From Candidatus Liptonbacteria bacterium (GTDB lineage: Bacteria > Patescibacteriota > Minisyncoccia > UBA6257 > 2-01-FULL-56-20): a DNA stretch of 45,268 nucleotides. The translations under genes were made by a program, and so were the position numbers. The stretch is taken from NCBI GenBank assembly GCA_016204355.1, contig JACQKT010000016.1:1-45268 (forward strand). Reading direction: 5' to 3'. The notes below the pieces were generated by a model that saw nothing but the letters and a program-made list of their open reading frames with translations, was not told where the DNA came from and made no database searches. This document shows, one piece after another, positions 4,218 through 45,194 of this stretch (position 1 is its first letter; every line of letters starts with the position of its first letter).

Positions 4218-4233
4218 TTTAAAAAACAAAAAT

Positions 4234-4381: not shown

Positions 4382-4514
4382 GCTTACATCAACGGGTTGC
4401 AAAATCGTCGATTTAAGTCCTGACATGTTAGCACAAGATTTTTGTTTTGTCAAGCCTAAGATTTTAACACTGCTTTGAGCGTTTTTATAAACCTTTTTCT
4501 TCATGAAATAAAAA

Positions 4515-5516: not shown

Positions 5517-5518
5517 AC

Positions 5519-5601
5519 AGTTATTGGTTTTAGTTATGGGCGCCGGATAGGTTAAAACCGAAAGGTAAATACCAACAATACTGGCGGCCAAACCCAAAAC
5601 C
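5519..5601. repeat. Imperfect long-hairpin intergenic element, copy 2 (paralog at 213-265)
   Basis: AGTTATTGGTTTTAGTTATGGGCGCCGG ... TACTGGCGGCCAAACCCAAAACC. The arms are mutually complementary with mismatches, and the loop is about 30 nt longer than in copy 1. Confidence 0.6.
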
Positions 5602-5615
5602 AAAGACCAATTAAA

Positions 5616-6176
5616 ATGATCTATATCAACGAGTGGCTTCCGAATCCGACAGGCGCCGATAGTAACGGCGAATGGATTGAGCTTTTCAATTCCGGCAACG
5701 AGACAGCCAGTTTGGATAAATGGCATCTTGTCGCTGGCAACGGGAAAAAGTTCGTTTTGGGCGGGAAAAGCATCGGAGCAAAAGACTATCTCCTTTTGAA
5801 TAGGACGGAAACCAAACTGACACTGAGAAACCAAAACGACTCTCTTTTTCTTTACGACGGCAGCGGAAAGCTCGCCGACCAATCGTCGTTTATGGGCAGC
5901 GCTCCGGAAGGAAAAAGTTTTGCCAGAAGCGGGTATGAAACCGGAGAAGCAACGAGTTTTGTTTTTACCGCGCCGACGCCAGGCGCAGAGAACAAAATCG
6001 TCAAAGAATTTTTGGCTGCGGAAACCTACGCGTTCGGCAGGCCATTGAACGAAATTTTCGGCAACGCCGACGTTTTCTGGCTGGCGCTATTCGTCGGCCT
6101 GATTTATCCTTTTCTAATACTTGCGATAATAAAGAAAAATGAGTACCTATCTGAGCTCTTCTTTGGCCGCGACTGA
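5616..6176 (+). CDS. Lamin-tail-domain (LTD) protein with C-terminal TM anchor
   Basis: INEWLPNPTGADSNGEWIELFNSG...L..W.L is the LTD signature. C-terminal hydrophobic stretch FWLALFVGLIYPFLILAII. Confidence 0.75.
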   Translation: MIYINEWLPNPTGADSNGEWIELFNSGNETASLDKWHLVAGNGKKFVLGGKSIGAKDYLLLNRTETKLTLRNQNDSLFLYDGSGKLADQSSFMGSAPEGKSFARSGYETGEATSFVFTAPTPGAENKIVKEFLAAETYAFGRPLNEIFGNADVFWLALFVGLIYPFLILAIIKKNEYLSELFFGRD

Positions 6177-6591
6177 AAAATTCGCGAGAGGTCTCGCCGA
6201 AAAAATATCAGGGAAAAAACCCGGCAAAAAAGCGGTTATCGTAGCGCTTGCCGGGGAACTCGGCGCCGGCAAAACCGCCTTTGCAAAAGGATTCGCTTCA
6301 GGCCTGGGGGTGAATGGAAGGATATTCAGCCCGACTTTCATTTTGATGAGGAAAGCGGGAGTAAAAAACAAAAAATTCAGGGATTTTTTTCACATCGACG
6401 CTTATCGTGCTACCGACAAAAACTTCCTGAAACTCGGCATCCGCGAAATAGCAGAGGACCCGAGAAACATAATCCTCATAGAATGGGCTGACAAACTAAA
6501 AAGGATATTGCCCAAGTCTGCGATATGGATAAAGTTTGAGCACGGCAAAGGAGAGAACGAGAGAATTGTTACAGTGAATAAAGAATTATGA
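6139..6591 (+). CDS. tsaE: tRNA t6A37 biosynthesis ATPase TsaE
   Basis: GELGAGKTAFAKGFASGLG ... SPTFILM ... HIDAYR matches the TsaE P-loop and downstream motifs. The start is uncertain because it overlaps the previous ORF by 38 nt. Confidence 0.8.
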   Translation: MSTYLSSSLAATEKFARGLAEKISGKKPGKKAVIVALAGELGAGKTAFAKGFASGLGVNGRIFSPTFILMRKAGVKNKKFRDFFHIDAYRATDKNFLKLGIREIAEDPRNIILIEWADKLKRILPKSAIWIKFEHGKGENERIVTVNKEL

Positions 6592-8414
6592 ATAATGAAT
6601 CAAAAATTTGCCAGAACTGTAAACAGAACTTCGTAATCGAACCCGAGGACTTCGATTTCTACAAAAAAATCGACGTGCCGCCGCCGACATGGTGCCCGGA
6701 GTGCCGCCTGCAAAGGCGTCTTCTTTTTATGAATGAGCGGACTTTTTATAAGCGCGACTGCGACAAGTGCGGCAAAAACGTTATCTCGATGTTCCCCGCC
6801 GGCAGCCACAAAAAAGTTTATTGCTCGCCCTGCTGGTGGTCTGATGACTGGGGCGCGGAAGAATACGCCCACGACTACGATTTTTCAAAGACTTTTTTTC
6901 GGCAATTCGCGGAGCTCTACGCCGAAGTCCCGGAAATGGCTAGAATAGTGAACGAAAGCTCTCTGGTCAGAAGTGATTATTCCAATATTTCCGGATACCT
7001 AAAGGACTGTTACTTGGTTCTGAATTCCGACTACTGTGAAGAGTGTTCATACTGCGAATTCCTGGAGCAAAGCAAATCATGTTTGGACGTCACACACGCC
7101 CTTTCCTGCGAAAAGTGCTATAACGCCATAAATTGTTACAAATGTTACGGGAGCACGAACCTGTTCAACTGCGACGAGTGCGTCAACGTTCACTTCTCAC
7201 GCGGTTTGAGCGGGTGCTCCGATTGTTTCGGATGCATCGGGCTTAAAGGAAAAAAGTACTATTTTTTCAACGAACCGCTTACCGAAGAAGAATACAAAAA
7301 GAAGTTCGCCGAATGGAACGAAGGTTCTTATTCGCGCCGCGTAGAAATTGAAAAAAAATTGGCGGAAACCGCGCTGAATTACCCTTACAGATACATGACC
7401 CAATCAAGGAACTCGAATGTCACCGGAGATTTCATTTTTTGGTCAAAAAACGTTTTTAACAGTTACGAAGTTATAAGCACGGAAGATTCCAGGTTTTGCC
7501 ACTTCCTGACGTTTCCGGTTAAAACGGCGGATTCGTACGACTTCACGATGTGGGGCGGCGGAGTCGAAAGAACATACGAATGTATGGCAACCGGGGGCGG
7601 CCAGCGCGATGTCAGATTTTGTTTTATGTCGTGGTCGCAGTCTCTAAATTTGGAGTACTGCTGGTATGTCAGCAATACGAGAAACGCCAATCTTTTCGGC
7701 TGCGTCGGTCTCCGCAACAAGGAATACTGTATATTGAATAAGCAATACACAAAGGAAGAATATGAAAAATTAGTGCCTCGCATCATAGAGCATATGAATT
7801 CCATGCCTTACACCGACGCGAAGGGGAGAATATACAAGTACGGAGAATTTTTCCCTCCCGAACTCTCGCCTTTTTCTTACAACGAAGCGTTTGTCCAAGG
7901 ATATTTTCCTTTGACAAAAAAACAAGCCGAAGAATGCGGGTATAAGTGGAAAGAACCTGAACTAAGGAACTATCGGATAACGGTCACAGCCGACCAGCTA
8001 CCCAACGGCATAAAGGATGTTAAAGACGATATTCTGGAGCAAGTAATAGGCTGTTTGCATGAGAGAAAATGCGACGAACAGTGCACCGAGGCGTTCAAGA
8101 TAATTCCGAGCGAACTGGAGTTTTATCGCGCGATGAAAATTCCCTTGCCGCGTCTGTGCCCTAATTGCAGGCACCGCCAAAGGATAAAGAAAAGAAATCC
8201 AATAAAGCTTTGGCATGGTAAATGCCAATGCGTCGGCAGCACGCAGACCAACACGGACTCCACGCGGAATAACGCAGACACGCCGCGCTATCGCAATGCC
8301 ACACCGCATTTCCATGGCGACAATCCTTGCCCCAATGAATTCGAAACATCATACTCGCCGGAACGATCTGAAATAATTTACTGCGAGCAGTGCTACAATA
8401 GTGAAGTTGCGTAA
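6588..8414 (+). CDS. Large Cys-rich zinc-ribbon protein (608 aa), function unknown
   Basis: The N-terminal module CQNC...FYKKIDVPPPTWCPECRLQRR is echoed near the C-terminus (FYRAMKIPLPRLCPNCRHRQR ... YCEQCY). The central region is packed with Cys pairs (CEECSYCEF, CEKCYNAINCYKCYG, CDECVNV, CSDCFGCIG). Confidence 0.7.
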   Translation: MNNESKICQNCKQNFVIEPEDFDFYKKIDVPPPTWCPECRLQRRLLFMNERTFYKRDCDKCGKNVISMFPAGSHKKVYCSPCWWSDDWGAEEYAHDYDFSKTFFRQFAELYAEVPEMARIVNESSLVRSDYSNISGYLKDCYLVLNSDYCEECSYCEFLEQSKSCLDVTHALSCEKCYNAINCYKCYGSTNLFNCDECVNVHFSRGLSGCSDCFGCIGLKGKKYYFFNEPLTEEEYKKKFAEWNEGSYSRRVEIEKKLAETALNYPYRYMTQSRNSNVTGDFIFWSKNVFNSYEVISTEDSRFCHFLTFPVKTADSYDFTMWGGGVERTYECMATGGGQRDVRFCFMSWSQSLNLEYCWYVSNTRNANLFGCVGLRNKEYCILNKQYTKEEYEKLVPRIIEHMNSMPYTDAKGRIYKYGEFFPPELSPFSYNEAFVQGYFPLTKKQAEECGYKWKEPELRNYRITVTADQLPNGIKDVKDDILEQVIGCLHERKCDEQCTEAFKIIPSELEFYRAMKIPLPRLCPNCRHRQRIKKRNPIKLWHGKCQCVGSTQTNTDSTRNNADTPRYRNATPHFHGDNPCPNEFETSYSPERSEIIYCEQCYNSEVA

Positions 8415-8420
8415 TACGAA

Positions 8421-9320
8421 ATGAAGACCCTCCTTTTAATAGACGCCAATTCCATAATCCACCGCTGTTTTCACGCCTTGCCGAAATTCACGACTCCCGA
8501 CGGCAAGCCGAGCGGCGCGCTTTACGGCCTGGCGAGCGTACTTCTTAAAATTTTCCGCGAGGACAAGCCGGATTACGCCGCAGCTCTTTTCGACAGGCCC
8601 GAGCCGACATTCCGCGACAAAATATACAAAGAGTACAAAGCCCAGCGTCCGCCGACAGAGGACATTTTAATTTCCCAGCTCATCGAGGCGCCGAAACTTT
8701 TTGAAAAATTCGGGGTAAAGCCGCTGGACAAAGCCGGCTTCGAGGCGGATGACCTTATCGCCACGCTCGCGGAGAAGTTCAAAAATGACGCCAAAGTAAT
8801 AATAATGACCGGCGATATGGACACGCTCCAAATGGTAAGCGACGGGAAAATAACGGTGCGGGCTTTCAAAAAGGGAATCAGCGAAACAATCGATTACGAC
8901 GAAGCCGCCGTAAAAAACAAATACGGTCTCGAACCAAGCCAACTTGTCGATTACAAGGCCCTGGTCGGCGACAACTCCGACAACATCAAAGGCGTTCCGG
9001 GAATCGGCCCGAAAACAGCCGTCGGCATAATTCATAAATTCGGGCGGCTTGAAAAAGCGTACGATGACCTCGAAGTTTTGCCGGAAAAAGTAAGGGGAAA
9101 GTTGGCCGCATCGAAAGAACAAGCCGAGCTTTCAAAAAAACTGGTGACGCTCGACAGGAATGTGCCGGTCGGGGAAGTGACGCTACAAGATTTATCTGCC
9201 GAGATGAAGCAGGATGAGCTCGCGGATTATTTCGGGAAAATGGGATTCAGAACTCTTTCTAAAAGACTGGATAACGACAACGATCTCGCCCGCGCCGGCT
9301 CGCAGGGAGAAATTTTTTAA
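8421..9320 (+). CDS. Stand-alone 5'-3' exonuclease / flap endonuclease (Pol I N-terminal domain homolog)
   Basis: LLLIDANSIIHRCFHA, EYKAQRPP, FEADDLIATLA, LVGDNSDNIKGVPGIGPKTA (H3TH motif). There is no polymerase domain. Confidence 0.9.
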   Translation: MKTLLLIDANSIIHRCFHALPKFTTPDGKPSGALYGLASVLLKIFREDKPDYAAALFDRPEPTFRDKIYKEYKAQRPPTEDILISQLIEAPKLFEKFGVKPLDKAGFEADDLIATLAEKFKNDAKVIIMTGDMDTLQMVSDGKITVRAFKKGISETIDYDEAAVKNKYGLEPSQLVDYKALVGDNSDNIKGVPGIGPKTAVGIIHKFGRLEKAYDDLEVLPEKVRGKLAASKEQAELSKKLVTLDRNVPVGEVTLQDLSAEMKQDELADYFGKMGFRTLSKRLDNDNDLARAGSQGEIF

Positions 9321-9332
9321 ATTCTTCACCGG

Positions 9333-9341
9333 TGGTATAAT
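9333..9341 (+). promoter_or_regulatory. Extended -10 element (TGgTATAAT) upstream of the histidine kinase
   Basis: tggtataat lies 27 nt before the ATG at 9369, with a GAGG SD in between. Confidence 0.5.
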
Positions 9342-9368
9342 TTCACGGAGTAATTTCGAGGTTAATCA

Positions 9369-10670
9369 ATGCCAAATCTGAAATTTTTTCTTCTTTCCTT
9401 CCTCCCCGCGGCGGGCGCGATTCTGATATCTTTTTTCTTTTTGCCGCCGGTATGGTTCGTCACTGCAACAATTCTAATCGTCATTTTACTCGGACTTTCA
9501 TTTGCCCCGACAGTGCTTTCCGGAATGCAAAAAGCGGAACTTCCCGTTGATGAGCAGACAGGAGATGTAGAATTGCAATCCATTCTCAACAATTTCGGCG
9601 ACGCGCTTCTGATATACGACGAAAATTTCAAAGTAATTTTTTTCAACATCGCGGCCGAGAAACTTTTCTCGGTGCCGTCGGAGCTGGCTATCGGGATAAC
9701 AATCCGCCCGGAATTCGTCGACGATCCCAAATTGAAAGTTCTTACACGGGTGGTCTTCCCAACTCTTTCGCCCATAATGATCCCGCGTTCTCCAGCGGGA
9801 ACGTGGCCGCAGATAGTAGACCTGTCTTTTTCGGAACCACAACTGGATCTCCGCGTTAGCACGTCGCAGCTCGCTAGGGAATCAGGGGGCCCGACAAGAT
9901 TTCTGAAAATCATCCAAAATAGGACGCACGAGGTGGAGCTTCTCAAGATAAAGAGCGATTTCGTGACGGTCGCTTCCCATCAGCTGAAAACTCCCCTGAC
10001 AAACATAAACTGGGCGCTGGAATCGTTAAAAAAAGATAATACACTGAATAATTCGGACAAAGAAATAGTTGAGAGCGCTTTTGAGGCAAGCAAATTTTTG
10101 TCGGAGATAGTGGAAAGCCTGCTTAATATCGCAAAAATCGAAGAGGGCCGTTTCGGCTATGATTTTCAAAGAGCCGACATAGTCGAATTCCTTAATAGAA
10201 TTCTCGGGCAGGCCTTGACGCAGGCAAATAAAGCCGGCGTCAGGATTTATTTCGACAAGCCCAAAACGGCACTGCCGCCCGTCTTCATCGACGAAAAAAG
10301 ACTGACGCTTGCTGTCGCGAATATACTGGATAATGCGATACGTTATAACGTTAAAAACGGAGAAGTCATAGTAAAAGCAGCACCGGCCGACGGAAAGCCG
10401 TTCGTCGAAGTAAGCATAAAGGACACGGGCATAGGAATTCCGCAAGAAGAGATGAGCAAGCTTTTCAGCAAATTTTTCAGGGCGGAAAACGCGATAAAAT
10501 TCCAGACGGAAGGAACCGGCCTTGGTTTGTACATATCCAAAAATATAGTGGAGGCGCACGGAGGGGAAATACGCGTCGAATCCGAGATAAATCGCGGCAC
10601 GACTTTCTATTTCACTCTGCCAACGGACGAATCGCTCGTTCCCAAAAAAGAAATTCCCCAGGAAGGATAA
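9369..10670 (+). CDS. Sensor histidine kinase (2 TM, PAS-like, HisKA, HATPase_c); no response regulator in the window
   Basis: H-box FVTVASHQLKTPLT, N-box NILDNAIRYN, G-boxes IKDTGIGIP and GTGLGLYISK. Confidence 0.9.
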   Translation: MPNLKFFLLSFLPAAGAILISFFFLPPVWFVTATILIVILLGLSFAPTVLSGMQKAELPVDEQTGDVELQSILNNFGDALLIYDENFKVIFFNIAAEKLFSVPSELAIGITIRPEFVDDPKLKVLTRVVFPTLSPIMIPRSPAGTWPQIVDLSFSEPQLDLRVSTSQLARESGGPTRFLKIIQNRTHEVELLKIKSDFVTVASHQLKTPLTNINWALESLKKDNTLNNSDKEIVESAFEASKFLSEIVESLLNIAKIEEGRFGYDFQRADIVEFLNRILGQALTQANKAGVRIYFDKPKTALPPVFIDEKRLTLAVANILDNAIRYNVKNGEVIVKAAPADGKPFVEVSIKDTGIGIPQEEMSKLFSKFFRAENAIKFQTEGTGLGLYISKNIVEAHGGEIRVESEINRGTTFYFTLPTDESLVPKKEIPQEG

Positions 10671-11455
10671 TGCCCGAGTTGCCGGAGGTGGAAACAATTA
10701 TACGTGAGCTCAGAGCTAAAATTTCCGGTAAAGAGCTAAGGGAACTTTTTATTTTCGACAAACGCATCGGCCGTTTGCGCGTGTCACTGCCGCTGAAAAT
10801 AACAGGCGTCGATCGCCATGGGAAATTTATCGTTATCCACTCGTCGCGCGGAAAAATTTTGCTGCACTTGCGGATGAGTGGGAGGTTGCAATTTTCGGAG
10901 AAGGGAAAATCTAAGAGATCTCATAAAAGCGAGAGAGCGATTTTCGTTTTTGGCGACGGTTCGGTTTTGAAATTTTTCGACCCGCGCAGGTTCGGGACAA
11001 TCGAATGGCGTAAAGGTAAATTGCCGGAACTGGGTTTGAATCCGCTCGGTCCGGAATTCACTTACAAAAATTTCCGGGATATCCTCCATTCGCGCTCGCG
11101 CACAATAAAAAACCTGCTTTTGGACCAGAAAATCGTCGCAGGCTTGGGAAACATATACGTCGACGAAAGCTTGTGGTTCGCAAAAATAAACCCCCGGCGC
11201 AAGAGCGATTCGTTTTCCGATATGGAAATTAAACGACTAAGAACGGCCATTGTTCAAGTTTTGAAAGAAGCCATAAGGCGGGGAGGATTTACCCTGCGTG
11301 ACTACAAGAAAACGACCGGAAAGAAAGGGAGCTACCAACTGTTCAGAAAAGCGTATAGCCGCGAGGGGTTGCCTTGTTCCCGTTGTCGGAGCAGAATAAA
11401 GAGGATAAAAATCGGAGGACGAGGCACCTATTTTTGTCCGAAATGCCAAGCATGA
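10670..11455 (+). CDS. mutM: Formamidopyrimidine-DNA glycosylase (Fpg/MutM)
   Basis: MPELPEVETI N-terminus and C-terminal zinc finger CSRCRSRIKRIKIGGRGTYFCPKCQ. Confidence 0.95.
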   Translation: MPELPEVETIIRELRAKISGKELRELFIFDKRIGRLRVSLPLKITGVDRHGKFIVIHSSRGKILLHLRMSGRLQFSEKGKSKRSHKSERAIFVFGDGSVLKFFDPRRFGTIEWRKGKLPELGLNPLGPEFTYKNFRDILHSRSRTIKNLLLDQKIVAGLGNIYVDESLWFAKINPRRKSDSFSDMEIKRLRTAIVQVLKEAIRRGGFTLRDYKKTTGKKGSYQLFRKAYSREGLPCSRCRSRIKRIKIGGRGTYFCPKCQA

Positions 11456-13119
11456 AACATAAAACCGAATATATCTTTGTAGTCGGCGGAGTCATGTCCG
11501 GAGTAGGCAAGGGCATCACTGCCGCATCGATAGCGAAAATAATCCAATCGCGAGGAATCGAAACGACCTCCGTAAAGATCGACCCGTACGTGAACGTAGA
11601 CGCAGGCACGATGAATCCGACCGAGCACGGCGAAGTTTTCGTTCTCGATGACGGAACCGAATGCGACCAGGATATGGGCAATTACGAAAGGTTTTTGAAC
11701 AGAAGTCTGACAAAAACGAATTACATGACGACGGGAAGCGTTTATCTTTCGGTGATACAAAAAGAGCGTAACTTGGAATACGGCGGCAGGCAGGTCGAAG
11801 TGGTGCCGAGAATTCCTCTGGAAGTTCTGGACCGTTTGGAAAGAGCCGCAGCGAAAAACAAAGCGCAGGTCGTTGTGACAGAGATCGGCGGAACTGTGGG
11901 CGAATACGAAAACATTCTTTTTTTGGAAGCGGTCCGCATGCTGAAACTTAAAAATCCCGACGATGTCGCGCTGGTTCTCGTAAGTTTCGTTCCCGCGCTC
12001 GGCGCCGGCGGAACGGAATTGAAAACGAAGCCGACACAACACGCGGTTAGGAGTTTGAATTCCGTCGGACTCCATCCCGATTTCATAATGGCACGCGCAC
12101 ACATGCCTCTCGACAAGAAACGGAAAGAGAAACTGGAATTTATGTGCAGCATCGATAAAGGGAACGTTATTTCCGCTCCCAACGTGGCGAACCTCTACGA
12201 TGTTCCGATAAGTTTCGAAAAAGACAAATTGGGAGAGAAAATTTTGAGCAAACTGAAAATGAAGCCGAGATCGCGGGACATGAAAGAGTGGAAAAAACTT
12301 TCGGAGGCGGCGAAACGAAGCAAGGAAGAGGTCAAAATAGGTATTGTCGGAAAATATTTTGGCAGCGGCGACTTTACGCTTACAGACTCTTATATTTCGG
12401 TGATAGAAGCCGTAAAGCACGCCGCTTATGCGCTTAAGAAAAGGGTTCTTATAGAATGGCTGGATTCGCATGAATTCGAGAAATCCCCTAAATCTCTTAA
12501 AAAACTATCGGATTACGGCGGCGTGATAGTCCCCGGGGGATTTGGCAGCCGCGGCATCGAAGGGAAAATCTCGGCTATACGCTACTGCCGTGAGAATAAA
12601 GTTCCATATTTCGGGCTTTGCTACGGAATGCAGCTCGCCATAGTCGAGTTCGCCCGCGACGTGGTCAAAATGGGAAAGGCGAACACGACAGAAATAAATC
12701 CGAGAACTCCTTTTCCCGTAGTCGATATTTTGGCTGAACAGAAAAAGAACGTGGAAACCAAAAACTACGGCGGCACAATGCGGCTCGGCGCATATCCAGC
12801 GCTTTTGAAAAAGGGAACTATTGCAGAAAAAGCGTACGGTTGCGGCAAAATCTCCGAACGCCACCGCCATCGCTACGAAGTGAACCCCAAATACATCGAA
12901 CGGATGGAGAAAAAAGGACTCGTGTTCTCCGGGATTTCTCCCGACAGGCGCCTGATGGAGATAGCGGAACTGCCGAAATCGACACATCCTTTTTTCCTCG
13001 GAACACAATTCCATCCGGAATTCAAATCCCGCCCGCTTCAGCCGCATCCGCTTTTCGTGGAATTTATAAAGTGTGCTTCATTGCAGAAAAAAACTACGAA
13101 GAACAGGAAAGCCAGATGA
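11452..13119 (+). CDS. pyrG: CTP synthase
   Basis: KYIFVVGGVMSGVGKGI, the glutaminase region GLCYGMQL, and the HRHRYEVN motif. The start was set at MKHKTEY (ATGA overlap with the mutM stop). Confidence 0.95.
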   Translation: MKHKTEYIFVVGGVMSGVGKGITAASIAKIIQSRGIETTSVKIDPYVNVDAGTMNPTEHGEVFVLDDGTECDQDMGNYERFLNRSLTKTNYMTTGSVYLSVIQKERNLEYGGRQVEVVPRIPLEVLDRLERAAAKNKAQVVVTEIGGTVGEYENILFLEAVRMLKLKNPDDVALVLVSFVPALGAGGTELKTKPTQHAVRSLNSVGLHPDFIMARAHMPLDKKRKEKLEFMCSIDKGNVISAPNVANLYDVPISFEKDKLGEKILSKLKMKPRSRDMKEWKKLSEAAKRSKEEVKIGIVGKYFGSGDFTLTDSYISVIEAVKHAAYALKKRVLIEWLDSHEFEKSPKSLKKLSDYGGVIVPGGFGSRGIEGKISAIRYCRENKVPYFGLCYGMQLAIVEFARDVVKMGKANTTEINPRTPFPVVDILAEQKKNVETKNYGGTMRLGAYPALLKKGTIAEKAYGCGKISERHRHRYEVNPKYIERMEKKGLVFSGISPDRRLMEIAELPKSTHPFFLGTQFHPEFKSRPLQPHPLFVEFIKCASLQKKTTKNRKAR

Positions 13120-38528: not shown

Positions 38529-38972
38529 CTAGGAAAATTCTCTCATCTCGCGGCGGGCGTCGCGCTTTTTTATAATTTCGCGCTTATCGGATTTTTTTCT
38601 GCTTTTGCCGAGACCGAGCTCTATTTTTATGAAGCCCTTTTTGAGATATGCGCGCAAAGGAATCAGGGAAAATGATTTCTGGTTCAGCTTCCCGTAAAGA
38701 GATTTTATTTCGCTTTTGTGCAAAAGCAGGCGGCGTGAACGTTCAGGGTTGTAATCGACCGGGGCGTTTTTCGGCTGATACGGCGAGATCGACGAATTAA
38801 CCAGCCAAAATTCGCCGTTTTTCGGAACGGCGTAGCTTGATGTCAGATTGAAGCGCCCGGCTTTGGCACTTTTCGTTTCTTGTCCGGTAAGCTCTATGCC
38901 GGCCTCGATGGTTTCAATAATGTCGTAGTCGAATCGTGCCCGGCGGTTTTCGGATACATTTTTCATAAACAT
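38529..38972 (-). CDS. smpB: SsrA-binding protein SmpB
   Basis: NRRARFDYDIIETIEAGIELTGQE.KS ... LLLHKSEI ... LIPL.AY.K....K.ELGLGKS.K..DKRE. The start may instead be the second ATG at 38966. Confidence 0.95.
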   Translation of the reverse strand: MFMKNVSENRRARFDYDIIETIEAGIELTGQETKSAKAGRFNLTSSYAVPKNGEFWLVNSSISPYQPKNAPVDYNPERSRRLLLHKSEIKSLYGKLNQKSFSLIPLRAYLKKGFIKIELGLGKSRKKSDKREIIKKRDARREMREFS

Positions 38973-39117: not shown

Positions 39118-40896
39118 ATGCGAAAAAAAATCGGACTGATTTTGAGAAAGGCGATGGGCGGTGACGCGGAGGTATCGATTCCGGAAAACGAAAAATTCGG
39201 ACATTATTCCACCAACGTAGCGATGAAGCTTGCGAGGGGGAAAAAAGCCGCCCCGCGTCAGCGGGGCGAGCCTTGCCCTGCTGGGCGGGGAAATTCGCTG
39301 GAACTCGCCGCGGAACTTGCGGCAAAGATAGAGAAAAGCGCGCCGGCGGGATTTTTCGAAAAAGTGGAAGTTGCCGCCCCTGGTTTCATAAATCTGTGGG
39401 TTTCCAAAAAGATTCTCAGAGACGAGCTTGTTTCGATATTCAGGCAAAAAGAAAGATACGGAAGGAGCGATGTCGGCAGAAAAAAGAAAGTCATTGTCGA
39501 ATATTCCTCGGTGAATGTCGCCAAGCCGATGCATGTAGGCCATTTGCGAAGCACGGTTATAGGAGACGCGCTTGCGAATGTTTTGGAATTCGCCGGATAC
39601 AAAGTCATTCGATGGAATTACGTCGGCGATTGGGGAACCCAGTTTGGAAAACTTATCGCCGCATACAAACGATGGGGGAGGAAATCCGAAGTAGAAAAAT
39701 CTCCGATAGGCGAACTTTTATCGCTTTATGTGAGATTCCATAAAAAAGAGGTGGAGAACCCGATTTTTTTGAAAGAAGGACAGGAAGAATTTATGAAGCT
39801 CGAGGCAGGAGACAAAGAAAACAGGAAACTCTGGCGGTGGTTTAGCAAAGAGTCGATGGAAGAGTTCAAAAAAGTCTACGGCATTTTAGGCGTTAAGTTT
39901 GATGTGGTTTTGGGCGAGTCGTTTTTCGAGCCGTTTCTGAAGCCGCTCGTAGAACGCCTGTATAAAAAGAAAATAGCGACGGAAAGCGAAGGCGCATTGG
40001 TAGTTAATTTTGATAAATTCTCTGCCAAAAAGGGATTGCCGCCGGCGCTGGTACAAAAATCCGATGAATCAAGCCTTTATCTTACGCGCGATATCGCCAA
40101 TCTCGAGTACAGGATAAAAAAATATAAGCCGTCGGGAATAATATATGTTGTCGGCAACGAGCAGGCGCTTCACTTCGAGCAGCTTTTCGCCATTGCCGGA
40201 ATAATCCGTTTGAAAAATACAAAGCTCGCCCATGTTAAATACGGCTTGGTGCTGGGAGAAAAAGGCAAAAAGCTTTCCACGCGCGGCGGAGAAGCCATCC
40301 AGCTCGAAGAATTGTTGCGAAAGAGCGTCGGCCTTGCCGGAAAGATAGTCGAACAGAAAAACCCGAAGTTGAAAGCCAGAGAAAAGAATGCGATAGCCGA
40401 AGCGGTGGGCGTCGGCGCGGTGAAATACAACGATCTGAAGGAAAACAGAATGTCGGACATATATTTCGACTGGGACAAAATGCTCGACTTTTCAGGCGAC
40501 AGCGCGCCCTACATCCAATATACGCACGCGCGATTGAGGAGCATTCTGCGGAAAGCGCATAAAGCGTCAGGTATCCAGTATCCCTCCTTCGCTAAAGCTT
40601 CGGTGGGCAAGCAAGTATCAAGTTTGGATACGGATATCGAGATGGCTCTTATAAGAAAAATCGCGGAATTTCCCGAAACGGTACGCCGGAGCGCCGAAAA
40701 CTTTTTCACCAACAACATAGCCAGATATCTTTACGAGCTTGCGAACTTAGCCAACAAATATTACGAATCAACCCCGATTCTGACCGATAAGAACGTTGAC
40801 CGTCGCAACGTCCGCCTGATGTTGATAAATTCAGTGGCAGTTGTCATAAAAAACGGGCTCGGACTCCTCGGAATAAAGGCACCTGAGAAAATATAG
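39118..40896 (+). CDS. argS: Arginine--tRNA ligase (with a short GC-rich in-frame extra segment near the N-terminus)
   Basis: SSVNVAKPMHVGHLRS (HIGH region), KLSTRGG (the MSTR/KMSK-like region), anticodon-binding C-terminus ...YYES.PIL. Confidence 0.95.
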   Translation: MRKKIGLILRKAMGGDAEVSIPENEKFGHYSTNVAMKLARGKKAAPRQRGEPCPAGRGNSLELAAELAAKIEKSAPAGFFEKVEVAAPGFINLWVSKKILRDELVSIFRQKERYGRSDVGRKKKVIVEYSSVNVAKPMHVGHLRSTVIGDALANVLEFAGYKVIRWNYVGDWGTQFGKLIAAYKRWGRKSEVEKSPIGELLSLYVRFHKKEVENPIFLKEGQEEFMKLEAGDKENRKLWRWFSKESMEEFKKVYGILGVKFDVVLGESFFEPFLKPLVERLYKKKIATESEGALVVNFDKFSAKKGLPPALVQKSDESSLYLTRDIANLEYRIKKYKPSGIIYVVGNEQALHFEQLFAIAGIIRLKNTKLAHVKYGLVLGEKGKKLSTRGGEAIQLEELLRKSVGLAGKIVEQKNPKLKAREKNAIAEAVGVGAVKYNDLKENRMSDIYFDWDKMLDFSGDSAPYIQYTHARLRSILRKAHKASGIQYPSFAKASVGKQVSSLDTDIEMALIRKIAEFPETVRRSAENFFTNNIARYLYELANLANKYYESTPILTDKNVDRRNVRLMLINSVAVVIKNGLGLLGIKAPEKI

Positions 40897-40901
40897 CGGA
40901 A

Positions 40902-41204
40902 ATGAAATACAACAAATTGGTCAGAGATAAAATTCCGAAATACATAAAAAATAAAAGCGGCAAGCCGGTAACTCATATTGCCGGCGATGCGGAATACTGG
41001 GAAAGGCTTAAGGAAAAATTGCTTGAGGAAGCAACGGAATTCAATAAAGAAGAAAGCATCGAAGAATTGGCGGATATTTTGGAGGTAATCGATGCAATTT
41101 CGGATTATAAAAAGTTCAATAAGCGCGAAATAGAAAACGCGAAAAGCAAAAAAGCCGAAGAAAAAGGGAAATTCGAAAAGAGAATAATTTTGGACGAATC
41201 GTAA
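40902..41204 (+). CDS. MazG/PRA-PH-like nucleoside triphosphate pyrophosphohydrolase (100 aa)
   Basis: KLVRDKIP ... KL.EEA.E ... EELADILEVIDA is typical of the small house-cleaning NTP-PPase family. Confidence 0.7.
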   Translation: MKYNKLVRDKIPKYIKNKSGKPVTHIAGDAEYWERLKEKLLEEATEFNKEESIEELADILEVIDAISDYKKFNKREIENAKSKKAEEKGKFEKRIILDES

Positions 41205-41214
41205 TTCAACGCAG

Positions 41215-41673
41215 ATGCGGGATAGAAAGTTCAAACCCAAACCGGGACAAATCGATTATAGCGATGCCAGATGGGCACCGGTGATAAATTGCGTCGTAAA
41301 ATACGGAGACAAAATTCTTATAGTAAAGAGAAGCTCCGAGTTGAGGTTCTATCCCGGTTTGTGGAACGGCCTTGGCGGTTTTCTGGACGACGATAGAGGT
41401 CTGGAAGAAAAAGTCCGGGAAGAACTTCAGGAAGAGATAGGCATCGGTTCAGACGATATTGTTTCCATAAAGTCGGGAGAAATTTTCGACGCCGACGACC
41501 CGGAATTCGGGAAAACATGGATTATTCACCCGATTCTTGTCGAGGTCAGAACCGACAAGGTAGTTCTCGACTGGGAGGCAGAAGAATACCGCTGGATAAA
41601 ACCAGAAGAACTCGCCGATTTCAAAATAGCGGACAGTTTCAAAAAAGTGGTCAAAAACTTTTTTGATTTGTAA
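41215..41673 (+). CDS. Nudix hydrolase
   Basis: Nudix box GGFLDDDRGLEEKVREELQEEIGI. Confidence 0.85.
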   Translation: MRDRKFKPKPGQIDYSDARWAPVINCVVKYGDKILIVKRSSELRFYPGLWNGLGGFLDDDRGLEEKVREELQEEIGIGSDDIVSIKSGEIFDADDPEFGKTWIIHPILVEVRTDKVVLDWEAEEYRWIKPEELADFKIADSFKKVVKNFFDL

Positions 41674-43152
41674 TATAAGGAAATGCCGGAAGAAAAATCG
41701 TTCAATCTGCCGCAGGCTGAGGAAAAAACATTGGATTTTTGGAGGAAAAACAAGATTTTCGAGAAAAGTCTCGCGCTTAGGCAGGCCAGAAATAAGAAAC
41801 CCTTCGTTTTCTACGAGGGACCTCCGTATGCCAACGGCAAGCCTGGCATACACCATGTTTTGGCTAGGATTTACAAGGATATAATCCTTCGCTACAAATC
41901 CATGCGCGGGCATTACGTTCCGCGCCGGGCCGGATGGGACACGCACGGGTTGCCGGTTGAAATTGCCGCCGAAAAAGCGCTGGGTCTGAAATCCAAAAAA
42001 GACATAGAAAAATTCGGCATCGAGCGTTTCAACGAAGAAGCGAGAAAAGCGGTCTGGGTTTATAAGGAAGAATGGGAAAATCTCACGGAGAGAATAGGGT
42101 ATTGGCTCGACCTCAAAAACGCTTACATAACGTGCTCGAACGATTATATAGAAACGCTTTGGTGGATTCTTGCAAAGATTTGGAAGAGAAAACTTCTTTA
42201 TAAGGCGCACAAAGTCGTTCCGTGGTGTCCGCGTTGCGGAACGGCGCTTTCGGCGCACGAACTGGCGCAAGGATACAAGGAAGTCGACGACACGTCGGTA
42301 TACGCAAAATTCAAATTGAAGAAAGGACAAAAGATAGGAAAATTTACGACCGATGATAAGACATATATTCTTTCATGGACTACGACGCCGTGGACTTTGC
42401 CGGGCAACGTGGCACTGGCAGTCGGGGCCGACATAGATTACGCAGAAACCAATATCAACGGAGAAAAGTTAGTAGCTGCAAAAAATCTTTTCGAAAAAAT
42501 CGGTTTGCCTGCAAACGCCGAGAAACAATACAAAGGGAAAAATCTCGTCGGCTTGAAGTATCAGCAGCTCTTTGATGTGCAGAAACTGCAGAACGAAAAA
42601 TCGCACAAAATTTATTCAGCAGATTTCGTTACCACAGAAGACGGAACAGGAGTTGTTCATACAGCGGTCATGTACGGAGAAGATGACTACGAGCTCGGAA
42701 AAAAAGTCGGCCTGCCACAACATCACACGGTTGACGAAGAAGGGAAATTCACCAAAGAGGTAAAAGGATTCGCCGGTTCGCCCGTTAAGGCGAAGGAGAC
42801 GGAAGAAAAAATCATAAATTATCTGAAATCAAAAAACTTTTTGCTGAGAACTGAAAATTATACGCACGAATACCCGTTTTGCTGGCGGTGCGGCTCAGCG
42901 GTGATTTATTACGCGAGGACGTCATGGTTTATCGCAATGGGGAAACTGAGAAACGAATTGCTCAAATCGAACAAGACGATAAACTGGGTGCCGGCGCACG
43001 TAAAAGAAGGCCGTTTCGGAGAATGGCTCAGAGAGAAAAAAGACTGGAATCTGTCGCGTGAACGTTATTGGGGTGCGCCGATGCCAGTATGGGAATGCGC
43101 GAGGTGCGGAAAAACCGAGGTAGTAGAAAGTCTCGGCGAGTTGAAGAAAAAG

Positions 43153-43743
43153 ACCGTACGGAGGAACGAGTTTTTATTTTTGAGGCATGGTGAGGCCGAC
43201 CATAACGTCAAACATATGACCGGGCCGTCGAAAGACGCGAAAAAATACACCTCTCATCTTACTCTTAAAGGGAAAAAAGATATTGCAGACATCGCAAAAA
43301 AAATCACCAAAAGAAAAATAGATATAATCGTTTCTTCGCCTCTCACCAGAGCGCGCGAAACTTCAAAAATAGTTCAGAAAGCGACAAGAGCGAAGGTAAT
43401 CTATCACAAAGGGCTTATAGACATAAATCCCGGCGTATTTATGCTTAAGTCAGCAAAAGAGCACAGTTCTTATTTCAAAAGCGAAATCGACAAATTCGCA
43501 ATGGCGCCGCCCGAGGGAGAAAACAGGAACGAAACAAAGAAAAGAATGGCAAAGGTTTTCTCAGAGGTAAACTCCAAATTCAAAGGCAAAAGAATTTTGA
43601 TTGTCAGTCACGGCGAACCGTTGTGGCTGCTCAGGGGGGCGCTGGAGGGACTTTCCAACGAAAAAATTCTCGAAGCCCTTTATCCAAAGACTGGAGAACT
43701 CTACGAAATAAATACCGGTTCTTTGCCCATAGACGCTTCCGGA
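43153..43743 (+). other. Histidine-phosphatase (PGAM/cobC-like) domain inserted inside IleRS
   Basis: FLFLRHGEADHN (RHG motif, 43183-43191), VSSPLTRARET, and ILIVSHGEP (second catalytic His, 43606-43614). It is flanked by VWECARCGKTEVVESLGEL and NLDLHRPYADRV..CSGC, which are normally adjacent in IleRS. Confidence 0.75.
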
Positions 43744-44268
43744 AATCTCGATTTGCACCGTCCTTATGCCGACCGAGTGACACTGAACTGTTCAGGGTGC
43801 AAAGGAGAAATGAAAAGGATAAAAGAAGTCGCAGACGTCTGGTTCGATTCCGGCGCGATGCCTTTCGCACAAGTTCACTATCCGTTCGAGAATAAGGCGC
43901 TCATCGATAAAAAAACCATGTACCCTGCCGATTACATTTCGGAGGCGATGGACCAAACGCGCGGCTGGTTTTACACGCTCCTTTCTGTTGCTACGGCACT
44001 AGGATACGAAGCCCCATACAAAAACGTCATCTCGCTGGGGTTAATAAACGACAAGTTCGGACAAAAAATGTCGAAATCAAAGGGGAACATAGTCGAGCCG
44101 TGGGAGGTCATCAACAAATACGGAGCGGACGCGGTTCGTTGGTATTTTTATACCGCTACGCCGCCCGGCGAGCCGAAAAATTTCGATGAGAACGAAGTCA
44201 GCAAAGCATACCGCAAATTCCATCTGATTTTCTGGAACTCGGTTATGTTTTATAAGACGTATGCGGGG

Positions 44269-44293
44269 AAAATCAAAAATCAAAAATCAAAAG
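44269..44293 (+). repeat. AAAAATC heptanucleotide tandem repeat at the ileS frame break
   Basis: g-AAAATC-AAAAATC-AAAAATC-AAAAG: two perfect and two partial units. Confidence 0.85.
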
Positions 44294-45194
44294 TAACAAC
44301 ATACTGGACAAATGGATTTTGGCGCGGCTGGGAGAAACCGTAGCCGAAGTTACCGAAAACCTTGAAAAATATCAAGTAAGAGAATCCGCGATTTCTATCG
44401 AAAGACTTTTGGACGATCTGTCCCGTTGGTACATCAGGCGCTCGAGACGGAGATTTTCGGCAGTTTTCAAAGGCGGAGCCGGCGGCGGGAGAGAACACAC
44501 CGAAGCCTCGCAGACACTGGGCATGGTGCTTTCAGAGATGAATAAACTTATGGCCCCTTTCGTGCCGTTTTTGAGCGAAGCTGTTTACAGGGAACTCGGA
44601 GCAAAAAAAGAAGAATCGGTCCATCTGACAAATTGGCCAAGCGTCGGGAAATCGCAAATCATAAATCGCTCATCGCTCATCGATGGCATGGCGGATATCA
44701 GAAGAATAGCAAGTTCGGCGCTGGCGAAGCGCGCGGAGATCGGAATAAAAGTGCGGCAGCCGCTCGCGGAGCTTCGTATAAAGGATCAATCATCAATCAT
44801 CAAGAAAAACAAGGAATTGTTGGAGATTTTGAAAGACGAAGTCAATGTTAAAAAAATAACTTTCGGGGCGAAAATTTCTGGCGACATCGAATTCGACACG
44901 GTTATAACTCCGGAACTTAAAAAAGAGGGAACCATCAGAGAACTCATCAGAACCGTTCAGGAACTTCGCCAGGAGGCCGGGCTGAAGCCCGGAGACAGCA
45001 TAGATTTGATGCTCGATTTGCCTGCGGAAATAAAATCAGCGGTATCGAGTAACGAAAAGTTTTTGAAATCGGAAGTCGGAGCGAAAAGTTTGGCTTACAA
45101 AAAATCAGGAAAATTTTTGGCCGAAGCGGAAACGAAAATCGATAATCTGAAGATTCGGATAGGAGTGAAAAAAGCGAAATAAAAAGTATCTCCA

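What the first reader, a model, noticed from the sequence alone, without database searches (positions are those of the whole stretch)
43153..43743. Complete histidine-phosphatase domain inserted inside isoleucyl-tRNA synthetase
In IleRS the segment W-E-C-x-x-C-G...(short linker)...DLHRPYxD...C-x-x-C...DVWFDSG is normally contiguous. Here about 197 aa are inserted between VWECARCGKTEVVESLGELKKKT and NLDLHRPYADRVTLNCSGC. The insert carries the full branch-1 histidine phosphatase (PGAM/CobC/SixA-like) signature: LRHGEADHN, SSPLTRARET and VSHGEP. The catalytic residues therefore look intact rather than decayed. There are no intein motifs, and the insert is in frame. I do not recognise this fusion as a described aaRS architecture. 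Aminoacyl-tRNA synthetases make Ap4A-type dinucleotides and handle phosphorylated intermediates. The inserted domain could hydrolyse a phosphorylated nucleotide or by-product, or a 2'/3'-phosphorylated tRNA end.
Basis: partly seen in the sequence, partly recalled or inferred. Interest (0 to 1): 0.8.

Follow-up and report, generated by a model that had tools for sequence, protein, structure and literature searches.

The report
Phosphatase domain nested inside isoleucyl-tRNA synthetase
This candidate-phyla bacterium carries a complete, apparently active phosphatase enzyme spliced into a surface loop of the enzyme that loads isoleucine onto tRNA; hundreds of related species share the arrangement, no paper we could find describes it, and it points to an unknown helper activity for tRNA-charging enzymes.

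Summary
Window 43156-43737 encodes a ~194-aa branch-1 histidine phosphatase (Pfam His_Phos_1, E 7e-30). It sits in frame inside the zinc-binding CP3 subdomain of a type-2 IleRS and replaces a ~6-residue loop.

It is not an assembly artefact. At least 169 species-level Patescibacteria genomes and all 120 best database homologues have the same insert at the same point. The catalytic residues R501, H502, R556 and H643 are invariant in 81 sequences; the proton donor is E or D at 580. AlphaFold models are confident for the insert alone (pLDDT 93) and in context (pTM 0.83).

New context:
- In relatives without the insert, the same phosphatase is a ~190-aa gene directly upstream of ileS, in an operon smpB<-argS->hp->ileS.
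- The same subfamily is also inserted at three or more other IleRS positions and in ValRS (four or more copies).
- It is fused to ArgRS, TsaC and ATP sulfurylase. All of these enzymes form an adenylate and release pyrophosphate (PPi).

The substrate is unknown. My best guess, at low confidence, is a cis-acting hydrolase for a phosphorylated by-product of adenylation, with PPi the most parsimonious candidate. The main rival is removal of a phosphate from the tRNA 3' end.

No paper describing this was found. Separately, the window's ileS has a one-base frame break at about 44266-44293 that no relative has.

The parts
39118..40896 (+). argS (arginyl-tRNA synthetase), the conserved upstream operon partner. 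smpB lies divergently at 38529-38972 (-).
   Evidence: ORF. argS lies upstream on the same strand in 39 of 51 insert-bearing loci with at least 3 kb of upstream sequence, and in 7 of 8 contexts of the stand-alone phosphatase. The smpB match is at 38601-38966.
41683..43155 (+). IleRS N-terminal part: first half of the Rossmann fold, CP core, CP1 editing domain, CP2, and the first half of CP3 up to '...GELKKKT'.
   Evidence: tRNA-synt_1 at aa 16-495; aligned to 1ILE residues 9-481; AF2 model matches IleRS2 structures 8C8W and 1ILE.
41845..41856 (+). Class I signature motif in the non-canonical form G-I-H-H (GXHH) instead of HXGH.
   Evidence: Sequence 'GKPGIHHVLAR'. H57 and H58 are invariant in alignment A2. 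GXHH IleRS2 is described as mupirocin-hyper-resistant in PMC10485003.
43096..43107 (+). First Cys pair of the CP3 zinc knuckle (C472-A-R-C475).
   Evidence: C472 is present in 71 of 79 and C475 in 64 of 68 relatives. The CP3 of T. thermophilus IleRS carries a Zn motif (PMC7191050).
43156..43737 (+). Nested histidine-phosphatase (His_Phos_1, branch 1) domain, aa ~492-685.
   Evidence: Pfam E 7e-30. AF2 pLDDT 92.7 and pTM 0.89. Foldseek rmsd 2.0-2.4 A to PhoE 1H2E, PspA 4IJ5 and Rv2419c 4PZ9. The insert is present at this point in 80 of 80 loci.
43183..43188 (+). R501-H502 of the RHG motif (phosphate-binding Arg and nucleophilic His).
   Evidence: Codons agg cat read. Invariant in 81 of 81 sequences and in 44 stand-alone relatives.
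43348..43350 (+). R556, the second catalytic Arg (SSPLTR motif).
   Evidence: Invariant in 81 of 81 sequences.
43420..43422 (+). D580, at the position of the general acid (Glu in most relatives).
   Evidence: E in 73 and D in 8 of 81 sequences.
43609..43611 (+). H643, the second catalytic His (family motif S-H-G-[DE]-P-L-W).
   Evidence: Codon cac read. Invariant in 81 of 81 sequences.
43738..44292 (+). Remainder of CP3 and the second half of the Rossmann fold. Includes DLHRPY, the second Cys pair C703/C706 at 43789-43800, DVWFDSG, DQTRGWF, and KMSKS at 44065-44079.
   Evidence: Aligned to 1ILE residues 488-658. The motifs are invariant in alignment A2.
44266..44293 (+). Frame break: one base is apparently missing within A-runs of an (AAAATC)3 repeat, inside a variable linker. 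ORF1 stops at 44343.
   Evidence: Frame 1 reads '...FYKTYAGKIKNQKSK' and frame 0 continues '...SNNILDKWILARL'. All relatives are uninterrupted.
44292..45182 (+). IleRS C-terminal part (anticodon-binding domain plus type-2 C-terminal DUF5915), read in the other frame.
   Evidence: Anticodon_1 E 2e-24 and DUF5915 E 4e-21.

Best explanation
Shown. The gene encodes a bifunctional protein: a type-2 (GXHH) isoleucyl-tRNA synthetase whose CP3 zinc-knuckle loop carries a complete, folded histidine phosphatase of the PhoE/PspA/CobC-like kind. It is not a phosphoglycerate mutase. The phosphatase's catalytic core is under strict purifying selection.

Inferred origin. The domain derives from a ~190-aa phosphatase gene (hp). 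In related Patescibacteria, hp sits immediately upstream of ileS, with spacing of -4 to +20 nt, in the operon smpB<-argS->hp->ileS. In this lineage hp was moved into ileS.

Inferred mechanism, low confidence. The phosphatase works in cis with the synthetase and removes a phosphorylated by-product of the ATP -> aminoacyl-AMP + PPi half-reaction. Inorganic pyrophosphate is the most parsimonious candidate, because PPi is the one product shared by every enzyme that has captured this domain (IleRS, ValRS, ArgRS, TsaC, ATP sulfurylase). His502 would attack the phosphate to form a phospho-histidine intermediate. D/E580 would protonate the leaving group, and water would then release Pi. Tethering the domain would fix stoichiometry and local activity at the synthetase.
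For: - Domain identity and fold.
- Residue conservation across 81 species-level sequences that average 40% identity: R501, H502, G530, S552, R556, E613, R621 and H643 are invariant, and 580 is E or D. The same set is invariant in 44 stand-alone relatives.
- Insert and linkers are modelled confidently within the whole enzyme: pTM 0.83, insert blocks pLDDT 90-97.
- The IleRS motifs are intact (GXHH, KMSKS, DVWFDSG, DQTRGWF).
- Operon origin: hp lies directly upstream of an insert-free ileS in 6 of 8 contexts, and argS lies upstream in 7 of 8.
- No second hp copy lies within +-6 kb of any of the 80 insert-bearing ileS genes.
- Synteny is shared: smpB/argS upstream in the window itself.
- Recurrent capture by adenylate-forming enzymes: a second IleRS site (P0286; P0291, Ca. 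Peregrinibacteria); a third and a fourth IleRS site (P0185); ValRS with at least four catalytically intact copies (P0178); an ArgRS C-terminal fusion (P0172); TsaC (P0206); ATP sulfurylase (P0237, three members on contigs of 12-114 kb).
- CP3 follows directly after the CP2-3 linker that lines the tRNA-CCA/reveromycin pocket (PMC7955072).
Against: - There is no biochemical evidence for any substrate.
- I know of no branch-1 histidine phosphatase that acts as an inorganic pyrophosphatase, and the literature search found none.
- A conserved acidic residue follows the second catalytic His (H-G-D/E-P; D in 55 of 81). It is an odd neighbour for a polyanion such as PPi unless a metal is involved.
- PPi diffuses freely, so precise nesting in CP3 gives little obvious kinetic gain.
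- I could not establish whether these genomes lack a canonical pyrophosphatase.
- The ValRS, ArgRS, TsaC and ATP-sulfurylase fusions each rest on 1-3 sequences. The ArgRS and IleRS links could partly reflect gene adjacency alone.
Confidence: 0.35

Rival explanations
1. tRNA 3'-end repair in cis. The phosphatase removes a 2'- or 3'-phosphate (or pyrophosphate) from the terminal A76 of tRNA bound to the synthetase. Such ends arise from RNase damage or from toxins that phosphorylate the CCA end. Removal would make the tRNA chargeable again.
For: Four of the five partner families act in tRNA charging or modification (IleRS, ValRS, ArgRS, TsaC). The insert lies in CP3, directly after the CP2-3 linker that forms the tRNA-CCA pocket. 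The cap region is small and PhoE-like, which implies an open active site able to take bulky substrates. The domain is basic, pI ~9.2. An acidic residue next to the catalytic His could bind ribose hydroxyls (inference only).
Against: The ATP-sulfurylase fusion has no link to tRNA. TsaC itself does not bind tRNA (background knowledge). Three or four tandem copies in ValRS are hard to rationalise for a single tRNA end. The rest of IleRS is equally basic, pI 9.1, so charge is uninformative. I know of no histidine phosphatase that acts on RNA ends.
Confidence: 0.2
2. Housekeeping phosphatase with no mechanistic coupling. hp is an ordinary small-molecule phosphatase, for example a sugar-phosphate, phosphoserine or short phosphoglycerate-mutase-like enzyme. 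It happens to be co-transcribed with argS and ileS, and was fused or nested only because that fixes co-expression and CP3 tolerates insertions.
For: The nearest characterised relatives are metabolic phosphatases: PhoE, PspA, CobC, Rv2419c and archaeal dPGM. Adjacency alone can explain the ArgRS and IleRS fusions. The insert evolves faster than the synthetase core, 40% against 57-62% identity. IleRS in these bacteria also hosts unrelated nested domains, such as the GNAT and Y1-transposase-like domains in P0217, so its loops are permissive.
Against: All five distinct partner families found are ATP-to-adenylate + PPi enzymes, and ValRS, TsaC and ATP sulfurylase are not explained by the argS-hp-ileS adjacency. 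The domain is inserted at four or more different IleRS positions in different lineages. A simple N-terminal fusion would have been the easy outcome for an upstream gene, yet nested insertion is what is conserved. The insert scores below every equivalog cut-off, and the mutase-specific Asn after the second His is absent (HGEP/HGDP).
Confidence: 0.2
3. Self-protecting protein phosphatase. The domain removes inhibitory phosphorylation from the synthetase itself, placed there by HipA-like toxin kinases. It would act like the protein-directed members of this superfamily (SixA, PGAM5, Sts-1).
For: The superfamily includes protein phosphatases (SixA gives a weak match at 27 bits). The domain is tethered to several class I synthetases. 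From background knowledge, HipA-family kinases are known to target class I synthetases (GltX, TrpS).
Against: There is no evidence for such kinases here. The TsaC and ATP-sulfurylase fusions are unexplained. The SixA score is far below its cut-off of 74.5. PADLOC defence models give no match.
Confidence: 0.08
4. Artefact: a chimeric assembly or mis-join created the apparent insertion.
For: None for the insertion itself. The gene does contain an apparent one-base error or mutation further downstream.
Against: The same architecture with the same junctions is found in 169 species-level genomes and in more than 120 independent proteins from four data sources, at 30-76% identity.
Confidence: 0.01

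Closest known systems
Type-2 isoleucyl-tRNA synthetase (IleRS2) with the non-canonical GXHH signature (T. thermophilus 1ILE; P. megaterium IleRS2 8C8U-8C8W; PMC10485003)
   Same: The host protein is the same kind. TIGR00392 scores above its cut-off. The C-terminus is type 2 (DUF5915). The GIHH motif, KMSKS and a Zn-type CP3 are present. Sequence identity to solved structures is 36-38%, and the best Foldseek match is the GXHH mutant 8C8W.
   Different: None of the solved or described IleRS enzymes has anything in the CP3 loop. Here ~194 aa of a second enzyme replace ~6 residues. A 2026 survey of IleRS domain evolution does not mention it.
NCBIfam NF040702 'isoleucine--tRNA ligase, N-acetyltransferase domain-containing' (IleRS with a nested GNAT)
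   Same: It is a curated precedent for an IleRS that carries a whole extra enzyme domain inside its polypeptide.
   Different: The domain is different (GNAT, not a phosphatase) and so is its place. The unmatched stretch of that profile, positions ~270-446, falls in the CP1/editing region rather than CP3 (inferred). The window protein scores 309 bits against a cut-off of 1999, so it is not a member.
Stand-alone broad-specificity histidine phosphatases: PhoE/YhfR (1H2E, 1EBB), PspA phosphoserine phosphatase (4IJ5), CobC alpha-ribazole phosphatase (6E4B), Rv2419c (4PZ9)
   Same: Same fold, same R-H...R...E...H catalytic set, similar size (~190-210 aa) and a short cap. Rmsd is 2.0-2.6 A.
   Different: Identity is only ~20%. 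The insert scores below all equivalog cut-offs. It has its own motifs (N-x-F-x-x-RHGE, SHG[DE]PLW). It is genetically tied to synthetase genes, which none of the characterised enzymes is.
Rv2228c-type bifunctional RNase H / acid phosphatase (NCBIfam NF005567)
   Same: This is the best-scoring NCBIfam model for the insert (75 bits). It is a precedent for a CobC-like histidine phosphatase fused to an enzyme that handles nucleic acids.
   Different: It is an end-to-end fusion rather than a nested insertion, and the partner is different. The score is far below the cut-off of 326.
ATP sulfurylase fused to inorganic pyrophosphatase in some eukaryotes (recalled from the literature on sulfate-assimilation gene fusions; not checked here)
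   Same: An adenylate-forming, PPi-releasing enzyme is physically joined to an enzyme that removes its product. This is the logic proposed here, and P0237 joins this phosphatase family to ATP sulfurylase.
   Different: The pyrophosphatase in those fusions is a canonical family I enzyme, not a histidine phosphatase. PPi hydrolysis by the present domain is only a hypothesis.

Membership tests
Histidine phosphatase superfamily, branch 1 (Pfam PF00300) | Profile match above the curated gathering score | tested here: met
   104.6 bits against a cut-off of 21.7, E 7e-30, covering profile positions 2-168 of 194.
Histidine phosphatase superfamily, branch 1 (Pfam PF00300) | Catalytic quartet: RHG Arg and nucleophilic His, a second Arg, a second His | tested here: met
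   R501, H502, R556 and H643 are present in the window and invariant in 81 of 81 relatives and in 44 stand-alone relatives.
Histidine phosphatase superfamily, branch 1 (Pfam PF00300) | Acidic general acid after the third strand | tested here: met
   Position 580 is D in the window; across relatives it is E in 73 and D in 8 of 81.
Histidine phosphatase superfamily, branch 1 (Pfam PF00300) | Alpha/beta fold of the superfamily | tested here: met
   AF2 pLDDT 92.7. Foldseek probability 1.00 and rmsd 2.0 A over 187 columns to PhoE 1H2E.
Histidine phosphatase superfamily, branch 1 (Pfam PF00300) | Phosphoryl-transfer activity through a phospho-histidine intermediate | not testable with these tools
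   Requires an enzyme assay.
Cofactor-dependent phosphoglycerate mutase (dPGM) | Equivalog or subfamily model above its cut-off | tested here: not met
   TIGR01258 scores 38.8 against 81.7. Archaeal dPGM NF038349 scores 63.9 against 225.
Cofactor-dependent phosphoglycerate mutase (dPGM) | H-G-N motif (Asn after the second catalytic His), from background knowledge of the family | tested here: not met
   The window has H-G-E-P. Relatives have H-G-D-P in 55 of 81.
Alpha-ribazole phosphatase CobC, phosphoserine phosphatase PspA, and SixA | Equivalog model above its cut-off | tested here: not met
   TIGR03162 scores 67 against 163. NF045917 scores 51 against 350. TIGR00249 scores 27 against 74.5.
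Isoleucyl-tRNA synthetase, type 2 | ileS equivalog model above its cut-off | tested here: met
   TIGR00392 scores 764 bits against 621 for ORF1 alone.
Isoleucyl-tRNA synthetase, type 2 | Type-2 C-terminal region (Anticodon_1 plus DUF5915) and similarity to MupA/MupB-like and eukaryote-like IleRS | tested here: met
Isoleucyl-tRNA synthetase, type 2 | Class I signature motifs: HXGH or its GXHH variant, and KMSKS | tested here: met
   GIHH at aa 55-58 and KMSKS at aa 795-799, both invariant in alignment A2.
Isoleucyl-tRNA synthetase, type 2 | One uninterrupted reading frame | tested here: not met
   The frame changes at ~44266-44293 in this window only. All relatives are intact. It cannot be decided without reads whether this is a sequencing error or a real mutation.
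Intein or other self-splicing insert | Hint / splicing-domain or homing-endonuclease motifs in the insert | tested here: not met
   His_Phos_1 is the only Pfam family matching 43153-43743.
NCBIfam NF040702, IleRS with a GNAT domain | Model above its cut-off | tested here: not met
   309 bits against a cut-off of 1999.

The most novel reading that the evidence does not exclude
Patescibacteria have a previously unrecognised accessory activity for adenylate-forming enzymes. A dedicated histidine phosphatase (hp) works with class Ia aminoacyl-tRNA synthetases, either as a translationally coupled operon partner or nested in their connective peptides. It has been captured independently many times: at four or more IleRS sites, and by ValRS, ArgRS, TsaC and ATP sulfurylase.

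Its chemistry would be new for the superfamily. Candidates are PPi hydrolysis, phosphoryl transfer from PPi (for example to AMP, which would recover energy from both by-products of aminoacylation), or cleaning of phosphorylated tRNA 3' ends.
Probability: 0.45. Interest if true: 0.85.

Novelty: new variant of a known kind. Interest (0 to 1): 0.72.

Why it matters
Aminoacyl-tRNA synthetases are among the best-studied enzymes. Their extra domains (editing, tRNA-binding, signalling) have repeatedly revealed new biology. A conserved, catalytically intact phosphatase built into the catalytic body of IleRS is not in any textbook architecture. It recurs in ValRS, ArgRS, TsaC and ATP sulfurylase.

If the phosphatase acts on a product of adenylation or on the tRNA end, it would define a new kind of synthetase-coupled reaction. 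That could explain how ultra-small, energy-limited symbiotic bacteria keep translation running. It would also add a new substrate class to the histidine phosphatase superfamily.

The system is directly testable, because nature provides both forms: the stand-alone phosphatase with an insert-free IleRS, and the nested fusion. It is also a clean natural example of an upstream operon gene becoming a domain nested inside its neighbour.

Tried and rejected
- Chimeric assembly is rejected. The same junctions occur in 169 genomes and in 120 of the 120 best hits.
- Intein or mobile-element insert is rejected. No such domain is present.
- True phosphoglycerate mutase, CobC, PspA or SixA orthologue is rejected. 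All equivalog scores are far below their cut-offs and the mutase HGN motif is absent.
- Anti-phage defence component: PADLOC gave no meaningful match.
- Literature: nine full-text searches found no description of a synthetase-histidine-phosphatase fusion and no branch-1 histidine phosphatase with pyrophosphatase activity. They also did not show whether Paceibacteria lack canonical pyrophosphatase.
- MazG-like and NUDIX genes between argS and ileS as general context: they occur only in the closest relatives (L001, L002, L059), so they are not part of the conserved system.
- One insertion or several: a rough neighbour-joining tree of IleRS without the insert interleaves insert-free and basal insert-bearing sequences. 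Domain BLAST mostly, but not fully, separates stand-alone from nested copies. This remains unresolved, and I do not claim either.
- Geometry of the phosphatase active site relative to the synthetic site or the tRNA could not be obtained, because the tools return no model coordinates.
- dN/dS was not attempted. The closest relatives are only ~65% identical in the insert, so synonymous sites are saturated.
Full report
**1. What is in the sequence**

Pfam splits it into tRNA-synt_1 (two stretches) and His_Phos_1 at aa 498-664 (E 1.5e-28). The segment 43153-43743 alone gives His_Phos_1 at E 7e-30 and no other family. NCBIfam identifies the host as ileS: TIGR00392 scores 764 bits against a cut-off of 621. 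It is closest to MupA/MupB-like type-2 enzymes. The next ORF, 44319-45182, carries Anticodon_1 and DUF5915, which together form the type-2 C-terminus.

Against T. thermophilus IleRS (1ILE), query residues 492 and 689 align with chain residues 481 and 488. About 196 residues therefore replace a six-residue loop. The loop lies between the two cysteine pairs (C472/C475 and C703/C706) of the CP3 subdomain. In T. thermophilus IleRS this subdomain carries a zinc motif (PMC7191050). CP3 follows directly after the CP2-3 linker '...SRxRYWG', which lines the tRNA-CCA/reveromycin pocket (PMC7955072). Comparison with an insert-free relative (L087, '...ELREKSGQNLDDLHRPY') puts the insert at aa ~492-685, nt 43156-43737.

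**2. Not an artefact and not rare**

A scan of one genome per species found 169 genomes that encode this IleRS segment with the insert. The 80 loci kept are all Patescibacteria/Parcubacteria-type MAGs, with names including Harrison-, Lipton-, Niyogi-, Yanofsky-, Wolfe-, Colwell-, Zambryski-, Campbell-, Wildermuth- and Uhrbacteria and Paceibacterota. In every locus not cut by a contig end, the gene is a single ORF of 1130-1245 aa.

All 120 best hits to the full protein, in a collection of 5.8 billion proteins, carry PF00300 alongside the synthetase domains. They are named only 'isoleucine--tRNA ligase' or 'class I tRNA ligase family protein'. The architecture is therefore present in public records, including a GW2011-labelled Parcubacteria MAG, but it is unremarked. 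Nine full-text searches found no description of it. One of the papers checked was a 2026 preprint devoted to IleRS domain evolution, which mentions neither a phosphatase nor CPR bacteria.

**3. The phosphatase looks active**

I aligned the window with the 80 relatives.
- The insert averages 40% pairwise identity. The catalytic body averages 57-62% and the anticodon-binding domain 45%.
- R501, H502, G530, S552, R556, E613, R621 and H643 are nevertheless invariant.
- The general-acid position 580 is E in 73 sequences and D in 8. N508 is present in 67 of 81.
- The same set is invariant in 44 stand-alone relatives.

AlphaFold2 models the insert with its flanks at pLDDT 92.7 and pTM 0.89. Foldseek places it in the superfamily. 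The tightest superpositions are on phosphatase-type members: PhoE 1H2E at 2.0 A, PspA 4IJ5 at 2.3 A and Rv2419c 4PZ9 at 2.4 A. Fits to mutases are looser, and identity is about 20% throughout.

Every equivalog model (dPGM, CobC, PspA, SixA, GpmB) scores far below its cut-off. The mutase Asn after the second His is replaced, giving H-G-[DE]-P-L-W. The domain is thus a member of the superfamily but of no characterised family.

In the model of the whole 886-aa ORF (pLDDT 83.8, pTM 0.83), the insert blocks score 90-97 and the linkers 80-95. This suggests a defined rather than floppy placement. The body superposes on IleRS2 structures. The synthetase motifs are intact.

**4. Where the domain came from**

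Close stand-alone relatives (~190 aa, 30-50% identical) are abundant in Patescibacteria. There are 4554 proteins at E<=1e-10, named 'histidine phosphatase family protein' or 'PhoE'. I examined eight genomic contexts.
- The gene lies directly upstream of ileS in six, with spacing from a 4-nt overlap to 20 nt.
- It lies downstream of argS in seven.
- The four long contigs all read smpB<- argS -> (0-1 gene) -> hp -> ileS (946-966 aa, type 2, no insert) -> small gene -> recO.

The window has the same frame: smpB at 38529-38972 (-), argS at 39118-40896, then two small genes, then ileS. Among insert-bearing loci, argS is upstream on the same strand in 39 of 51 with enough sequence. No second hp copy lies within 6 kb of ileS in any of the 80 loci.

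The simplest reading is that an operon partner of ileS was relocated into ileS. A rough neighbour-joining tree does not separate insert-free from basal insert-bearing IleRS. I therefore cannot say whether this happened once or several times.

**5. Recurrent capture by related enzymes**

Among the 150 best 50%-identity representatives of the insert family:
- 87 are IleRS with the domain at the window's CP3 point.
- About 53 are stand-alone.
- The rest show other arrangements, listed below.

Other arrangements:
- P0286 (complete, 1217 aa) and the Ca. Peregrinibacteria IleRS P0238/P0291 carry the domain between 'HYPFEN' and 'FPADFI'.
- P0185 has one copy after the second Cys pair of CP3, one at the HYPFEN site, and the start of a third in the linker before the anticodon-binding domain.
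- P0178 is a ValRS with one copy at the start of CP2 and at least three tandem copies at the CP3-equivalent point. All retain the catalytic residues.
- P0172 is ArgRS with a C-terminal copy.
- P0206 is TsaC (threonylcarbamoyl-AMP synthase) plus the domain.
- P0237 is the domain plus sulfate adenylyltransferase, with three cluster members on contigs of 12-114 kb.

Every partner converts ATP into an adenylate and PPi.

**6. How it most likely works**

Three things are shown. The domain is a nested, conserved histidine phosphatase that is probably active. It has an orthologous stand-alone form that is translationally coupled to ileS. It has repeated physical linkage to adenylate-forming enzymes.

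The rest is inferred. The phosphatase serves the synthetase reaction. Because PPi is the one product common to all partners, PPi (or another phosphorylated by-product of adenylation) is the most parsimonious substrate. Catalysis would proceed through phospho-His502 with D/E580 as the general acid. I give this 0.35. Several points count against it.
- No branch-1 enzyme is known to hydrolyse PPi.
- A conserved acidic residue sits beside the catalytic His.
- PPi diffuses freely.
- The status of canonical pyrophosphatase in these genomes is unknown.

Rivals, with probabilities:
- tRNA 3'-end dephosphorylation (0.20). It fits CP3's neighbourhood and four of the five partners, but not ATP sulfurylase or the tandem copies.
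- A housekeeping phosphatase fused only for co-expression (0.20).
- Reversal of inhibitory phosphorylation of the synthetase (0.08).
- An artefact (about 0.01).

**7. Comparison with known systems and novelty**

The host is an ordinary IleRS2 of the GXHH type. Nested extra enzyme domains in IleRS have a curated precedent (NF040702, with a GNAT domain, apparently within CP1). Histidine phosphatases fused to nucleic-acid enzymes also exist (Rv2228c type).

Four things appear to be undescribed: a phosphatase inside CP3; its operon-partner origin; its recurrence across IleRS, ValRS, ArgRS, TsaC and ATP sulfurylase; and the implied synthetase-coupled phosphatase activity. I rate it a new variant of a known kind (multidomain synthetases), with interest 0.72. 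The structural fact is solid and surprising, and it is directly testable with both natural forms. The function remains open.

**8. Caveat on this particular gene**

The window's ileS changes frame at about 44266-44293, inside an (AAAATC)3 repeat in a variable linker. Restoring one base in an A-run rejoins '...FYKTYAGKIKNQKSK' to '...SNNILDKWILARL'. No relative has this break. It is either a homopolymer error in the assembly or a very recent mutation, and only reads can tell which. It does not affect the insertion.

Noticed in passing
window 44266-44343 (and ORF 44319-45182): ileS is split by a one-base frame change inside an (AAAATC)3 / A-run stretch in the variable linker before the anticodon-binding domain. 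This gives ORFs of 886 aa and 287 aa. All 80 fetched loci and 119 database homologues are uninterrupted. It is probably a homopolymer error in the assembly, but a real recent mutation cannot be excluded.
   Followed up: partly
window 41845-41856: The class I signature motif is G-I-H-H (GXHH) rather than HXGH, and H57/H58 are invariant in relatives. PMC10485003 links this swap in IleRS2 to mupirocin hyper-resistance. That paper's sampling does not mention Patescibacteria.
   Followed up: partly
window 40902-41204 and 41215-41673: Two small genes lie between argS and ileS, where relatives carry the stand-alone phosphatase. One is a 100-aa ORF with no Pfam or NCBIfam match; by eye only, its KLVRDKIP... 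start resembles MazG-type NTP pyrophosphohydrolases. The other is a 152-aa NUDIX hydrolase. Only the closest relatives share them: L002 and L059 have both, and L001 has NUDIX only.
   Followed up: partly
P0217 (relative; 1066 aa, JGI contig of 11 kb): This IleRS carries three foreign domains. An IS200/REP-type Y1 tyrosine-transposase-like domain sits inside the editing region (aa ~326-472). The histidine phosphatase sits at the CP3 site. A GNAT acetyltransferase follows 'HFPFEN'. IleRS loops in these bacteria seem to be hot spots for domain capture.
   Followed up: no
P0178 (relative; ValRS fragment, 1161 aa): This ValRS has at least four histidine-phosphatase copies: one at the start of CP2 and three or more in tandem at the CP3-equivalent site. 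All keep the RHG...R...E...H residues. No explanation considered so far accounts for tandem active copies.
   Followed up: partly
L085:2251-2811: In one context the gene downstream of argS-hp is a REP-associated tyrosine-transposase-like ORF instead of ileS. Together with P0217, this hints that Y1 transposase-like elements are active around this locus and could be involved in moving hp.
   Followed up: no
L087-L090 compared with L001-L080 (IleRS tree): Insert-free IleRS genes (with stand-alone hp upstream) interleave with basal insert-bearing IleRS genes in a rough neighbour-joining tree. Either the insertion happened more than once at the same loop, or the tree is unreliable at that depth.
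   Followed up: partly
window 6139-6591 and 2532-13119: The rest of the window looks like ordinary Patescibacteria housekeeping genes. Examples are a type IV pilus/T2SS ATPase, RuvB, TsaE, a 5'-3' exonuclease, a histidine kinase, Fpg and CTP synthase. The 358-aa ORF at 969-2045 and the 608-aa ORF at 6588-8414 have no Pfam match.
   Followed up: no
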